Below, piece after piece: positions 9,966 through 14,839 of a DNA stretch of 64,000 nt. The notes under the pieces were generated by a model, which had not been told where the DNA came from, did no database searches, and saw only the letters and a list, made by a program, of their open reading frames with translations. The DNA comes from Heptranchias perlo (lineage: Eukaryota). The stretch spans positions 6,138,001 through 6,202,000 of the forward strand of contig NC_090365.1 in NCBI RefSeq assembly GCF_035084215.1. The letters are read 5' to 3'. The position numbers were made by a program, and so were the translations under genes. Position 1 is the first letter of the stretch. Each line of letters opens with the position of its first letter.

Positions 9966-11977
9966 TCACTGTCTGCATCTCTTTAGCGATTCGATGTAAT
10001 CAAAGTTTTTGTGCAAGAACATGATCTGGTCGATGTGGTCTGGCAGCAGGGCTGACCTGCAGGGGTCTGCGGTGCTGCTCGAACAAAATAAGGCCTTCTT
10101 GGCAGGGACCGAGGTGACGGGGATGGACAGGTATCGTTTGGCGAGCTTGGCCACAGCTGGGAACCGGTGCTCGTTGCTCCTCCACCAGTCGAAGGGGTTG
10201 GTATTACGTTTCCGCAGGGGCTCGGCCAGGTAGCTCTCCAGTTGCTGGTGAATCTCCGGCATGCGCTCGGTGGGATCTTCACCGAACAGGAGGTCGTACT
10301 CGCTCTGGCGCTGGCTGGGCTTGTGGATCCCCTTGCGGCCGTGGTGCTTGCCGCCCTCGTCGCGTTCCGTGCCGCTGTGCTCGTCTGAGGAGGAGGAGTT
10401 GCAGGACGAGTGCGAGTGAGGACTGGTCATCGTCCTGGAGAGCATGTTCTTCACCTTATTGTGCACCTCGTCCCGCGTGTCGGCGTTCAGGAAGCGAAGG
10501 TCCTTGAATCGAGGATCTAAGAAGGACGCCACGATGGCGGGGCTCTCCAACATCTCATCGTCGTCCGAGAGATGCCATCGCTTGCCGATCTCGGATCGGA
10601 TCTTGGCACTTACTGTTTTCACAATGCAGCCTGGGTCACCATGGTGGTGCATGAGAGCTGTCATGACCCCATGAAGACATGGTATTAAGGAGGACACGGA
10701 GGCGTTGTGCTCCTCACTTAGAAAAGACGATGCGACTTTAAGTGTCTTGAGGATGGGGAGGAGATCCTGGAGAAGTTTCCACTGGTGGTCAGACAGGTTT
10801 TGGACCGTCAGATGGGCGGCTCGGTCCTCTTCCAAAACCATGCTCACTGCCCAACGCAACTCCAGGAGCCTCTCGCACATGTCAAAGGTGCTGCTCCAGC
10901 GGGTGGCCGTGTCCATCACCAACTTGAGCTTCTCTTTGTTCATCTCTTCCAGCTTGCTGTTGAGTTCCAGGCCCGCCTTGGCGCTGTGGTGAAAGTAGTT
11001 GACGATTCTCCTGGCCATGCTCAGGGTGTGTTGGACCTGGTCCACCTGCAGCCCCAGCTTGATGCACAACTGCAGCATGCGACCAGCGCAGCACAGGCTG
11101 CGCCAGCTGAACCGCTCCTGCAGCAGCCGGGCGCTGCCCAGCAAGCTGCTGGCACTGTCGTGCACCACGCAGCTCACCGCCTTACTGGAGATGCCAAAGT
11201 CTCCGATGACCGAGTACAGCAACTCGCCGATGTTGTCCGGTGCCGGGTTGTACTGGGGCATGGTCTTCAGCACACAACGGGCCAGGTGCCAGTTACAGTC
11301 AATGAAATGTGCCACCACGGTGAGGTAAGCCTGCTTGCCCTGTGAAGTCCAGGTATCGGTGGAGAGGGTCAGCGACTGGACAGAGTGCAAGTAGTGCTCC
11401 AGTTGCTGCGTGGCCAGGTTGTATTTGTGTCTCAGGTTGTTAGCTAAGTGCATGCTGGATGGCATTTTATAACTGGGCTCCAGAAAGCCAAGGAGTAACT
11501 TAAAGCCCTCGTCACTGACGAGTGACATGGGCTGCAGGTCTCTGAATACCATGCCCAGGATCAGGTCGCTAACCATCTCGTCTCTTTTCTCGGAGCGGGG
11601 TTTGGTATCGTGCAGCACGAGTTCGGACATGGTCACCGGCTTGTTCTTCTTCAACTCGGGCTCCTGTCCCATGGATTCAGAGGATGAGGACCCTCCGTCC
11701 TGGTACTGGTGGAGGTCGAGCTCGCTGAGATTGTGTTTGCGCCTCAGGTGTTCCCTCAGGCTGGTCGTGCTGTTGTGGTAACACAGCTGCTTCCTGCAGA
11801 GGCTGCACTCCACGCAGCGCTCGTTCAACTTCTTGAAGAAGTCCCAAGCTTTGGACTTTGGTCGGCAGCTGACAGGCGAAGCTCTCTTGTAATTCAGCTC
11901 GCCCCCCCTCCGCCTTCTGGACCCTGCACCCATGCCGGTGGAGAGATTGTAAGACCGCAGGACCATGGAGAGCTCGT
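9966..11977 (-). CDS. Domesticated hAT transposase / ZBED1-ZBED4-like protein, large final exon (BED finger 2, RNase H-like core, hATC domain)
   Basis: BED finger SKAWDFF..C..C...TTSLREHLRRKH; hAT motifs STDTWTS, VVHDSAS, TRWSS, SFLDPRFK, NPFDWW..RFP..AKRYLSIP, MFLHKN. Acceptor ttttctgcag at 11978; stop at 9966-9968. The ORF-track start at 12002 is intronic. Confidence 0.93.
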
Positions 11978-12892
11978 CTGCAGAAAACACAAAAACCAGC
12001 ACTGCGACGTGACATCCCCTTCACAGAACAGTTCATCAAATAATACAGCACAGAAAGAGGCCATTCGGCCCATCGTGCCTGTGCCAGCTCTTTGGAAGAG
12101 CAATCCAATTAGTCCCACTCCCCTGCTCTTTCCCCACAGTCCTGCAAATTTCTCCCCCTTCAAGTATTCACCAATTCACTTTTGAAAGTTACTACTGAAT
12201 CTGCTTCCACCGCCCTTTCAGGCAGCGCATTCCAGATCATAACAACAGTAATATTGTAGAATATTAGCAACCAACTGCAAATTATTCCAGTGAGACCGAG
12301 ATACAGCTCTGGGCCACCTGCAGCCAGCCCCCGCCCCTTCAGCAACCTGCTGCTCCAGATCATTCTGGGCCCCATCGCCAGTCTGCCTGTAGGATGAAGA
12401 CTGGACTGTGATTCGGTGCTGTTCCCTCGCCTTCTCTCAGGGTTATCCCAGCGTTTATAGAGCGTCCTATTTAATGGAACTATTGTTCTGTAGGTTTTCT
12501 TTCCCTGCTGTTGGGAAGTGTCCACAATGGCGTCCGTGTCCCGTGTGGGGAATCGGAGGTGCAGACCTCTGCCCATCACCCTATGTCGGAGCATCCCTGA
12601 CACTGGCCCTCAACAAACAGCGAGTATCAGCGGATCATGCCAGTGGGGTACGGGCACCGAGCCGTGGGGTACGGGCACCGAGCCGTTAATCAGCGAATCT
12701 GTTTTTGTTTGAGGGCAGGATCTTGCTCAGGAAGAATTTATTCCTAATACATCTGTTTGAAATTTGCTTTTCACTGATTTAAATTTCTGGTCGTTCTGTG
12801 AGTTTGAATCCCCAAGGCAGGTTTAGGATTGGAACTGCTGACAAGAGTCAGTGAGATTCAATCTAATACGTCACAGTGTACAGTGACCGTAC

Positions 12893-13075
12893 CTTCAGCT
12901 AATGCAGTGTGGGACTCGCTAACTTCCCCAAAAGGTTGAATTTCCAGCTCTTCGTTCTCCTCTAGTTGAGCTGCACATTCTCTCAGCATGTCCGATATCC
13001 TCTTACTGCTGTGTGTCGCACTGGTTACCTTGAGGGAATGAAGGAACGGAGTCAGTACTTCCTTCAAATCCTGTC
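12893..13075 (-). CDS. ZBED-like gene, internal exon (183 nt, phase 1-1)
   Basis: cccttcacag acceptor and GAAG|gtacgg donor. Open frame (G)QDLKEVLTPFLHSLKV...HTALAE(D) joins the last exon in frame. Confidence 0.7.
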
Positions 13076-13181
13076 CTGTGAAGGGCAGAAAGGGGCTGCA
13101 GAGTCCATACACTCTCATCTCAGAGCCCCTCATGGAGGGAGGGAGTGGCAACTGTGTCATTTGGCGAGTTCCACAGACCAC

Positions 13182-13885
13182 AGGGTCTTAGAGACAATCC
13201 CCATCCTGTGCCCAGTTAGCTGAACTCAGCTAGAGCCCCAGTAGAGCTGCTACAACTCGCAGCCCAAGGCTGGGAGGAACGGGGCCAGAGGGGGCAGGCG
13301 TTGGGTATCAGGCACTGAGAGGGAAAGCAGGAAATGGGAGAGGTCTTAGGGGAGGAGACCAAACGTGGGGTCAAACAGGTAGGTTCTGAAGGTGGGGAGA
13401 GAGGGATGGAGGGAGGGAGTCCCAGGGTCAGGGTCACGCTGGCTGCTGACTCTGCCCCGAGCCGGTGGGGAGGAGGCGGGACAGAGAGCAGGAGCGGGTC
13501 GGGTGGAGAGAGACGGCGGGGGATTTGTAAACGAGGGGGAGGATTTTGAATTCAGTGCATTGGAGAATGGGAAGAGTTAGGATGAGGGGTAAGTGGGAAT
13601 TACTAAAGTCTGGGAGCAGGTCTATCAATCCTTCTGTCAGTCAGTTAAGGTACAGAGTAGGCCAAAGGGACGCAGAATACCTCCCCAGCAACTATTCTCT
13701 CCTTAACCTCCTCCCGCTGACTACCCCATACCCACCCCCCACCCCCAAGCTGGAGGATGCGCCTGATGTTCAATCCTGTTTTCTCCCCACTCTCCAGCCT
13801 TGGGCTGCGAGTTGTAGCAACTCTACTGGAGCTCTAGCTGAGTTTAGCTAACTGGGCACAGGATGGGGATTGTCTCAAAGACCCT
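13182..13885. repeat. 92-bp inverted repeat pair (13182-13273 and 13794-13885)
   Basis: Arms are reverse complements with 4 mismatches, enclosing a 520-bp spacer. Confidence 0.92.
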
Positions 13886-14169
13886 CTGCTGATACAGCAC
13901 AGAAACAGGCCATTCGGCCCAACTGGTCTATGCCGGTGTTTATGCTCCACACAAGTCTCCTCCCTCCCTACTTCATCTCACCCTATCCTTCTATTCCTTT
14001 CTCCCTCACGTGTTTATCTAGCTTCCCCTTAAATGCATTTATCAGGCACCTATCCATCCTCCCTTTGGTACCTCGCCCCTACTGGCCAATCTTCACGATT
14101 ATTCGAATGCCGGGGGGAGCATCAAAGCCATGCCTGGCCTCACCCGACCCTCAAACAAGTTAACCTTAC

Positions 14170-14310
14170 CCCTGCCTAGGAACCCTGAGGCTGCTGTGTT
14201 GTCCCTACAGCCTCCCGAAACTAACGGCTTGTACGGTTCAGAAACACAATCATCGACAGAGGCTTCACCAGTGACCCCGAGCTCTCCAGAAACAAACATT
14301 TTGTTTGCAG
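14170..14310 (-). CDS. ZBED-like gene, internal exon (141 nt, phase 1-1)
   Basis: ccttttaatag acceptor and GGG|gtaagg donor. Open frame ANKMFVSGELG...GFLGR(G) is compatible with the next exon. Confidence 0.6.
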
Positions 14311-14559
14311 CTATTAAAAGGAAACAGAAGACAGCAACGAGAATGATTGAGGGGATGGAGGGACTGGATTATGGGGAGCGATTATGAAAATTGGAGCTGG
14401 ACTGCAGCCAGTGCGTCTCACAATTTTGATGTTCAAATTAGGAACAATGACTCACAGGGTTATCTATCCCAATAAGCTCGGTGATCTTCGGAGGCCTCTC
14501 GGAGCAGGGAATTCCAGGAATCAGCTCTGTGCTGCTGTCAATTCCCTGCTGCTTCTTAC

Positions 14560-14722
14560 GGTCACATTCCTCTATAAAGTGAATGCCGTGATTCCGCTCC
14601 AGGTGTAGCCGCAGGTAGGTGGTGCTGCCGGAAAATGCCAGCTCCTTGCCACAGATGTTGCACACGATGGTTTTATCGTCTCGCTTAGTTACGCACTTCC
14701 AGATATCACTAATACGAGGCAT
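14560..14722 (-). CDS. ZBED-like gene, first coding exon with BED zinc finger 1
   Basis: GGCGGGATG start; MPRISDIWKCVTKRDDKTIVCNICGKELAFSGSTTYLRLHLERNHG is a BED finger. Exon acceptor at 14774. Donor ACC|gtaaga at 14559 keeps frame; an alternative donor lies at 14455. Confidence 0.75.
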
Positions 14723-14839
14723 CCCGCCACATCTGTGACTCCACATTAGCACAGACGTGTCAAAGCCACAGCACTGAAATAAAACAATGACATTAAATGA
14801 TTCTGTCCCTCTCTGATTCCGGCCCACCATCTCATGTTA

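What the first reader, a model, noticed from the sequence alone, without database searches (positions are those of the whole stretch)
9966..14773. Spliced, double-BED, catalytically dead hAT transposase: a probable domesticated host gene
Seen: an intact reading frame of about 832 aa over four coding exons with two BED fingers on different exons, and no TIRs evident. The first two catalytic Asp are kept (STDTW, codon 11355-57; VHDSA, 11157-59) and so is the RW motif. The CxxH His is Arg (CAGR, CGC at 11079-81) and the catalytic Glu motif (usually TSVPSERxFS) reads TSVPAKKALF (10098-10100). Known: hAT transposases need DDE and CxxH; characterised ZBED1/ZBED4/ZBED6 have single-exon ORFs and act as transcription factors (ZBED1 also as a SUMO ligase). 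Inference: an independent domestication that gained a second BED exon and may act as a transcription factor or a dominant-negative repressor of hAT elements.
Basis: partly seen in the sequence, partly recalled or inferred. Interest (0 to 1): 0.75.

Follow-up and report, generated by a model that had tools for sequence, protein, structure and literature searches.

The report
Ancient tamed transposon gene in shark
This is a shark's copy of an old, database-listed but unstudied gene that jawed vertebrates tamed from a cut-and-paste transposon; it has lost key cutting residues, likely works as a DNA-binding gene regulator, and carries an extra zinc finger that sharks and several fish groups appear to have gained separately.

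Summary
The gene is real, spliced and host-owned. It has three coding exons, not four (14746-14456, 13028-12893, 11977-9966; 812 aa, identical to an NCBI shark 'ZBED1-like' model). RNA contigs from two studies support both introns. The two BED fingers and all residue calls (D350, D416, H→R442, E→K769) check out. It is not shark-specific. It belongs to one clade (zebrafish si:dkeyp-117b8.4/zbed4l2) spanning sharks, rays, chimaera, coelacanth, amphibians, reptiles, birds and ray-finned fish, with no mammal among the listed hits. It shares a contig with MRPS12 in cartilaginous fish, coelacanth and amphibians. It is distinct from ZBED1, ZBED4/6 and ZBEDX, so independent domestication holds. BED zinc ligands and hATC tryptophans are near-invariant, while catalytic sites decayed lineage by lineage; only coelacanth and caecilians keep D, D, H and E. 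Best reading: a self-associating DNA-binding transcriptional regulator (0.65, inferred). Most interesting extra: the added N-terminal fingers of sharks/rays, cypriniforms, salmoniforms/esociforms and two single fish are different sequences and do not form one clade (p-AU 0.002), which suggests repeated capture of BED exons. No paper on the gene was found. New member of a known kind; modest interest.

The parts
14456..14773 (-). Coding exon 1 (acceptor at 14773; ATG at 14746, second ATG at 14722, where several orthologs start); carries the extra BED finger and a linker
   Evidence: junction 14456-13028 supported by clipped contigs and matching bin depths
14588..14716 (-). Extra N-terminal BED finger (aa 11-53, C29/C32/H48/H53); present in 12 of 16 cartilaginous-fish models, the other 4 start downstream
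12893..13028 (-). Coding exon 2 (45 aa, mostly low-confidence linker); a similar segment opens tetrapod and coelacanth orthologs; possible alternative in-frame acceptor at 13070
9966..11977 (-). Coding exon 3 (670 aa): basic RRRR cluster, core BED finger and complete hAT transposase fold
11730..11855 (-). Core BED finger (aa 184-225); zinc ligands kept in 110-111 of 113 family proteins
11355..11357 (-). D350, first catalytic aspartate position (kept)
11157..11159 (-). D416, second catalytic aspartate position (kept)
11079..11081 (-). R442 in place of the CxxH histidine (lost)
10896..10901 (-). R502-W503, hAT RW motif (kept)
10209..10310 (-). Segment aa 699-732 just before hATC; the most conserved block of the family (mean majority identity 0.85), candidate partner or oligomer surface (inferred)
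10005..10241 (-). hATC dimerisation region (aa 722-800), W740/W741 in 113 of 113 family proteins
10098..10100 (-). K769 in place of the catalytic glutamate (lost; no cartilaginous fish has an acidic residue here, 0 of 16)
9369..9965 (-). 3' UTR, at least this long
   Evidence: contigs X1 records 1-2, X2 record 8, X6 record 23
16100..16300 (.). Candidate shared promoter with the divergent MRPS12 gene (CpG o/e 0.83 in 16001-16500, one CCAAT, two CCGGAA); inferred from sequence only
18234..20899 (+). Neighbour MRPS12 (coding exons about 18234-18284 and 20481-20899), head to head with the gene; synteny marker

Best explanation
This is the shark copy of a host gene tamed from an Ac-family hAT transposon before cartilaginous and bony fishes split; it has lost two residues needed for cutting DNA and likely works as a self-associating, sequence-specific DNA-binding regulator of transcription. 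Shown: spliced expression, full hAT fold, one clade across jawed vertebrates, linkage to MRPS12, loss of the catalytic Glu and the CxxH His. Inferred: a basic cluster takes it to the nucleus; the transposase dimerisation parts and hATC make it oligomerise, as for human ZBED1; the core BED finger reads a conserved host motif; the dead catalytic body, with its very conserved aa 699-732 block, recruits partners. The extra N-terminal finger, likely gained as a new 5' exon in the cartilaginous-fish ancestor, would add a second DNA specificity or extra avidity.
For: Orthologs at 79-82% in sharks and about 39-52% in rays, chimaera and bony vertebrates, versus 83% for MRPS12 in the same shark pair. 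All 28 of 28 sampled family cores form one clade (FastTree 0.999, stem 0.47) among 76 outside hAT proteins, with a branching order that roughly follows vertebrate groups. Same-length contig as MRPS12 in 24 of 39 species found in both lists; chimaera accessions are two apart (XP_007907735 / XP_007907737). Splicing in RNA contigs of two studies; depth 1.5-9 over exon 3 in X1 against 50,000-300,000 over intronic repeats. AlphaFold model mean pLDDT 76 matches Hermes, E 1e-16. BED ligands 110-111/113 and W740/W741 113/113, but D350 17/113, H442 42/113, E769 36/113; acidity at the three catalytic positions ranks only 19th, 24th and 32nd of 62 acidic columns in bony vertebrates. DDE mutants abolish cleavage and CxxH mutants block hairpinning in Kat1 (PMC4763223, passages). 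ZBED1 hATC tryptophans are needed for self-association, and that region for nuclear accumulation and DNA binding (PMC7471704, passages).
Against: No binding site, localisation, partner or phenotype is known or was tested; the regulator role is by analogy to ZBED1 and ZBED6. The whole catalytic body is kept folded, and 75 of 97 bony-vertebrate proteins still have an acidic residue at all three positions, which a pure DNA-binding role does not require. Rays diverge fast in exon 3 (51% in Pristis), pointing to relaxed constraint there. No genome was held, so copy number and dN/dS were not measured. The runs' RNA status is a tool guess. MRPS12 linkage fails in 0 of 8 sauropsids and 4 of 6 teleosts compared.
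Confidence: 0.65

Rival explanations
1. A decoy that silences hAT transposons by occupying their ends or poisoning transposase oligomers; captured BED exons would update its targets.
For: Whole transposase fold and dimerisation parts kept. Extra fingers differ between lineages and some sit beside free hAT-type fingers in the tree (salmonid/esocid and Myxocyprinus fingers with FGF-type elements, 91/85; Denticeps with P0407/P0084, 97/56).
Against: The core finger is identical across caecilian, salamander, turtle and eagle, and the shark extra finger is itself conserved from sharks to rays (exon 1 65-78%). That is slow for a chase after fast-changing transposon ends (inference). Nearest outside hAT proteins are only about 28-35% identical, so mixed oligomers are doubtful.
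Confidence: 0.13
2. A protein scaffold or SUMO-pathway adaptor in which DNA binding is secondary, as the NCBI label 'E3 SUMO-protein ligase ZBED1-like' suggests.
For: The most conserved block (aa 699-732) lies outside the finger. Human ZBED1 has SUMO ligase activity (PMC7471704 passages) and ZBED3 binds Axin (PMC3606216).
Against: The label is carried over by similarity; the gene is not ZBED1 (human ZBED1 finger scores only E 0.13 against the family profile). No SUMO-acceptor consensus in P0001 (this does not test ligase activity). The finger's conservation argues for DNA reading.
Confidence: 0.12
3. The family was kept as a host nuclease or recombinase (like Kat1), still active in some lineages; the shark copy would have residual nicking or metal-binding activity.
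For: Coelacanth P0008 and caecilian P0007 keep D, D, CxxH, RW and E; caecilian P0015 keeps D, D, H, E; paddlefish and sturgeon keep DDE. 75 of 97 bony-vertebrate proteins keep three acidic residues.
Against: Only 3 of 113 keep D, D, H and E together; 0 of 16 cartilaginous fish keep an acidic triad; these positions are no more conserved than ordinary acidic columns.
Confidence: 0.07
4. An active or recently active multi-copy hAT transposon, or a decaying pseudogene.
For: Full-length transposase homology to Hermes.
Against: Introns, one ortholog clade over all major jawed-vertebrate groups but mammals, conserved linkage, no TIR plus duplication, lost catalytic residues, low contig depth.
Confidence: 0.03

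Closest known systems
zbed4l2 / si:dkeyp-117b8.4 / NCBI 'ZBED1-like' or 'ZBED4-like' ortholog group (zebrafish XP_005165631)
   Same: Same gene family: one clade, shared hallmark motifs, MRPS12 linkage. The window's protein is identical to XP_067831096.1.
   Different: Database names only. The zebrafish protein appears in PMC9859435 as a comparator (two BED domains noted). The shark copy has its own extra finger, unlike the zebrafish one, and has lost the third acidic residue.
Human ZBED1 / hDREF
   Same: BED finger + hAT core + hATC with the WW pair; the model for the proposed mechanism.
   Different: ZBED1 lies by DHRSX, has one finger and is present in mammals (PMC3606216 Table 1); its finger has an 8-residue FGF-type insertion missing here.
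ZBED4 / ZBED6 / frog ZBEDX / C7ORF29 clade
   Same: Domesticated Ac-family hAT genes with two to four BED fingers.
   Different: Linked to ALG12, ZC3H11A or LRRC61; their extra fingers arose by internal duplication (PMC3606216). Snake 'ZBED6-like' proteins are 21-26% identical and fall far outside this clade. Here the extra finger does not group with the gene's own core finger.
Zebrafish ZBEDX (zgc:161969)
   Same: Intron-containing hAT-derived fish gene.
   Different: 630 aa, one finger, 26% identical to the zebrafish ortholog of this gene (PMC9859435 Table 1).
Hermes and other active hAT transposases; Kat1
   Same: Same fold and motif order.
   Different: Active enzymes with DDE and CxxH that act on terminal inverted repeats; the shark protein lacks E and H and has no flanking TIRs.

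Membership tests
hAT (Ac-family) transposase-derived protein | BED finger, RNase H-like core with insertion domain, hATC region, Hermes-like fold | tested here: met
Active hAT transposon | Intact DDE triad and CxxH | tested here: not met
   E to K769, H to R442
Active hAT transposon | Terminal inverted repeats with 8-bp target duplication | tested here: not met
   0 candidates, 12-bp arms with up to 2 mismatches, left end 7000-9960, right end 11980-17000
Active hAT transposon | Multiple dispersed genomic copies | tested here: inconclusive
   No genome held; indirect only: one close protein for this species and low contig depth
Domesticated transposase gene | Orthologs with open frames across distant species | tested here: met
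Domesticated transposase gene | Conserved genomic position | tested here: met
   Same-length contig as MRPS12 in 24 of 39 species; contig length and accession closeness are proxies, gene order not read
Domesticated transposase gene | Expressed as spliced mRNA | tested here: met
   (contigs; RNA status guessed by the tool, but they skip both introns)
Domesticated transposase gene | dN/dS well below 1 | not testable with these tools
   No ortholog DNA held; protein conservation used instead
ZBED1 orthologs | Position beside DHRSX and ZBED1-type finger | tested here: not met
   Neighbours found are ERH, MRPS12, a SOCS gene and SUPT5H; 2CT5 finger E 0.13. No full-length ZBED1 was retrieved, so it is not in my trees
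ZBED4/ZBED6/ZBEDX clade | Grouping with that clade; ALG12, ZC3H11A or LRRC61 linkage | tested here: not met
   Snake 'ZBED6-like' proteins (NCBI label) far outside; different neighbours. ZBED4 itself was not retrieved
ZBED-type transcription factor (function) | Sequence-specific DNA binding and gene regulation | not testable with these tools
   Inferred from conservation and analogy (PMC7471704)
SUMO E3 ligase (NCBI label) | SUMO transfer to a substrate | not testable with these tools
   Name carried over by similarity

The most novel reading that the evidence does not exclude
An unrecognised third jawed-vertebrate domestication of an Ac-family hAT transposase, lost in mammals, that acts as a retargetable platform: cartilaginous fish, cypriniforms, salmoniforms/esociforms and others each captured a different transposon's BED finger as a new 5' exon, giving one ancient regulator lineage-specific DNA targets, while coelacanth and caecilians kept a complete and possibly working active site.
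Probability: 0.3. Interest if true: 0.62.

Novelty: new member of a known kind. Interest (0 to 1): 0.36.

Why it matters
PMC3606216 counts at least two Ac-family ZBED domestications in early jawed vertebrates, from searches seeded with known ZBEDs; this gene looks like a further one that such a survey missed because mammals seem to lack it. It has a zebrafish ortholog, so it can be tested at once. It offers a natural series from a complete active site (coelacanth, caecilian) to a dead one (sharks), and repeated gain of a second DNA-binding finger on the same gene. That is useful to people who study transposon domestication, but domesticated hAT genes are a well-known class and no function is shown.

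Tried and rejected
Whole genome: none held, so no copy count. Four-exon model: no exon between 12893 and 11977 in contigs; acceptors 13075, 13029 break the frame; 13022, 13019, 13013 are not AG sites (a first attempt used a wrong start coordinate). Upstream coding exon: none found in 15990-16420. TIR/TSD: none; the 95-nt inverted pair at 13179-13888 is intronic and has no 8-bp duplication. Run search listed no holder on record as RNA; exon 1 beyond about 14550 had no contig cover, which shows nothing. dN/dS from X6 differences: only 3 coding changes were displayed, too few. Identity with zebrafish ZBEDX rejected. Hayward's amino-acid tree labels show no such clade (supplement 4), but its labels 'ZbrafishZ' and 'Zebfis_A1/A2' could not be resolved and the alignment supplement was not read. 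Special conservation of the acidic triad in bony vertebrates: not seen. First BED tree was unresolved and its pattern missed the salmonid finger. P0414 and P0415 appear as sisters of the family on long branches (0.82, 0.93); not trusted. Literature: 'zbed4l2' 0 papers, 'dkeyp-117b8.4' 0, 'ZBEDX' 4, four broader searches with nothing on this gene; most subscription journals are not in the library. No complex prediction was sent, since a homodimer would pass by likeness to Hermes.
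Full report
Gene model. The long minus-strand frame 9966-12020 carries a BED finger and the hATC region, and a second BED finger lies in frame 14441-14836. The last exon is 100% identical to P0001, an NCBI shark model (Heptranchias perlo, XP_067831096.1, 812 aa). Joining 14746-14456, 13028-12893 and 11977-9966 reproduces that protein exactly. 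So there are three coding exons, not four. They align to Hermes's two aspartates, CxxH histidine and catalytic glutamate. The AlphaFold model (mean pLDDT 76, both fingers and the core mostly above 85, linkers below 50) matches Hermes best, E 1e-16.

Splicing. I laid 4 of the 8 listed runs (two studies; contigs; RNA status guessed by the tool) on 9300-14830. Records of X1, X2 and X6 run from 11977 straight to 12893. Records of X2, X3 and X6 stop at 13026 with 96, 38 and 31 letters left over. The depths in bin 14480-14664 (2.15, 0.32, 0.20) are what those letters give if laid from 14454 upward, so the 14456-13028 junction is supported by my arithmetic on tables 2 and 8, not by a listed joint. 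One X1 record runs to 13054, which fits an alternative acceptor (13070, in frame) or unspliced RNA. The 3' UTR reaches at least 9369. In X6 (organism B) the listed indels near the gene fall in the UTR.

Not a transposon. No inverted-repeat pair with an 8-bp duplication flanks the gene. Contig depth over the exons is single- to low double-digit, against 50,000-400,000 over intronic repeats. No genome was held, so copy number is indirect.

Family. Relatives at 39-82% identity come from sharks, rays, chimaera, coelacanth, caecilians, salamanders, frogs, turtles, crocodilians, tuatara, squamates, birds, bichir, paddlefish, gar and many teleosts. Sources call them ZBED1-like, ZBED4-like, zbed4l2 or si:dkeyp-117b8.4; the zebrafish protein is XP_005165631. 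In a FastTree of 104 cores, all 28 family members form one clade (0.999, stem 0.47) among mostly intact-looking hAT transposases, far from snake 'ZBED6-like' proteins. No mammal, jawless fish, invertebrate or percomorph is named as a family member among 114 hits or the 120 of 127 listed. Of 15 unnamed proteins, 14 had bird, squamate, frog or otophysan best hits and one (P0372) is sturgeon-like by eye. Five unnamed representatives from the exhaustive search were four birds and Denticeps. Both word searches scored only 8000 candidates and 50% clusters can hide members, so loss in mammals is likely but not proven.

Position. Window neighbours are ERH (exons near 1225-2435), MRPS12 head to head, a SOCS-family gene (26664-28097) and SUPT5H. 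Comparing contig lengths by eye across, this gene and MRPS12 share a contig in 24 of 39 species found in both lists: 7 of 8 cartilaginous fish (including the window's species), coelacanth, 14 of 15 amphibians, 2 of 6 teleosts, 0 of 1 gar, 0 of 8 sauropsids. Four of the 15 misses involve short scaffolds or other assemblies. Accessions are 2 apart in chimaera, 59 in Heterodontus, 62 in coelacanth, 66 in Mixophyes, 106 in axolotl, but 1789 in Spea and not comparable in Rhinatrema; that closeness reflects position is my own knowledge and only a proxy. The linkage is therefore likely ancestral and was broken in sauropsids and many teleosts. ZBED1, ZBED4, ZBED6 and frog ZBEDX lie by DHRSX, ALG12, ZC3H11A and LRRC61 (PMC3606216 Table 1).

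What selection kept. In 113 family proteins the core finger's ligands are kept in 110-111, W352, C439, W503, D630, P631, W740 and W741 in all 113, but D350 in 17, H442 in 42 and E769 in 36. Only coelacanth and two caecilians keep D, D, H and E. Most amniotes and teleosts read E-D-D or E-D-E; cartilaginous fish have no third acidic residue (0 of 16). Acidity at these positions is not unusual among acidic columns. Kat1 needs DDE for cleavage and CxxH for hairpins (PMC4763223), so the shark protein is very likely dead as a transposase. 'Dead' is a statement about lineages, not the whole family. The best-kept block is aa 699-732 (0.85), followed by the core finger (0.82) and hATC (0.72).

The second finger. 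It is 16 of 44 identical to the gene's own core finger and conserved across sharks and rays, degenerate in chimaera. Of 216 stored family proteins (isoforms included) 33 have two fingers, in five sequence types: cartilaginous fish, cypriniforms, salmoniforms/esociforms, Denticeps and Myxocyprinus. In a 48-row, 51-column tree the nine core fingers group together (89/92) with no extra finger among them, and forcing the 11 extra fingers into one clade is rejected (p-AU 0.002; chimaera's extra finger left out). That shows at least two origins and suggests up to five. The alignment is short, branches are long, the bootstrap had not settled, the shark finger's donor is unresolved, and the two single-species cases may be gene-model artefacts. 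Zebrafish has one- and two-finger isoforms. Exon capture from transposons as a route to new regulators is recalled from the literature (Cosby et al. 2021), not from a call.

Mechanism. The best fit is a ZBED1-like mode of action: self-association through hATC, nuclear entry, DNA reading by the finger(s), partner recruitment by the dead body (PMC7471704 passages). All functional steps are inferred. Rivals are a transposon decoy (0.13), a scaffold or SUMO adaptor (0.12), a residual nuclease (0.07) and a mobile element (0.03).

Literature seen. PMC3606216: parts 1-2 of 4 of the text, passages, supplement 4; its alignment supplement, not read, could hold a member of this family under an unclear label. 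PMC9859435: part 1 of 5 and passages. PMC4763223 and PMC7471704: passages. PMC1802594: start of abstract in a listing (mammalian MRPS12 shares a CCAAT-rich bidirectional promoter with SARS2). Searches for either gene name gave 0 papers.

Verdict. Real feature, exon count corrected, domestication confirmed and dated to early jawed vertebrates. New member of a known kind, already in databases. Interest 0.36.

Noticed in passing
window 13179-13888: About 710-bp element in intron 1 with 95-nt inverted arms at 95% complementarity, MITE-like, set into the tail of another repeat; no 8-bp duplication found; contigs cover part of it in X1-X3 but not the 13185-13369 bin in X6.
   Followed up: partly
window 16100-16300: CpG-rich stretch with a CCAAT and two CCGGAA sites between this gene and MRPS12. 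In mammals MRPS12 shares a CCAAT-array promoter with SARS2 (PMC1802594 listing); here the divergent partner appears to be the ZBED gene.
   Followed up: partly
window 1225-4760: ERH (enhancer of rudimentary) gene on the minus strand, exons at 2349-2435 and 1225-1338, CCGGAA sites near 4700.
   Followed up: partly
window 26664-28097: Single-exon SOCS4/5-type gene (SOCS, SH2, SOCS box) between MRPS12 and SUPT5H; paralog identity not determined.
   Followed up: no
window 29629-30846: Spt5 C-terminal repeat exon (SUPT5H); MRPS12 and SUPT5H are also near each other on human 19q13.2 (recalled).
   Followed up: no
P0008, P0007, P0015: Coelacanth and caecilian orthologs keep D, D, CxxH and E; amniotes and teleosts both tend to an E-D-D pattern, apparently reached separately.
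   Followed up: partly
P0414, P0415, P0387: Unnamed hAT-derived proteins with degenerate catalytic motifs near the family in the search ranking; may be other domesticated genes.
   Followed up: no
window 3830-4560, 14800-16090, 16500-16900, 21280-23250: Several minisatellite and simple-repeat arrays around the locus, with N gaps at 15195-15370 and 19868-20295.
   Followed up: no
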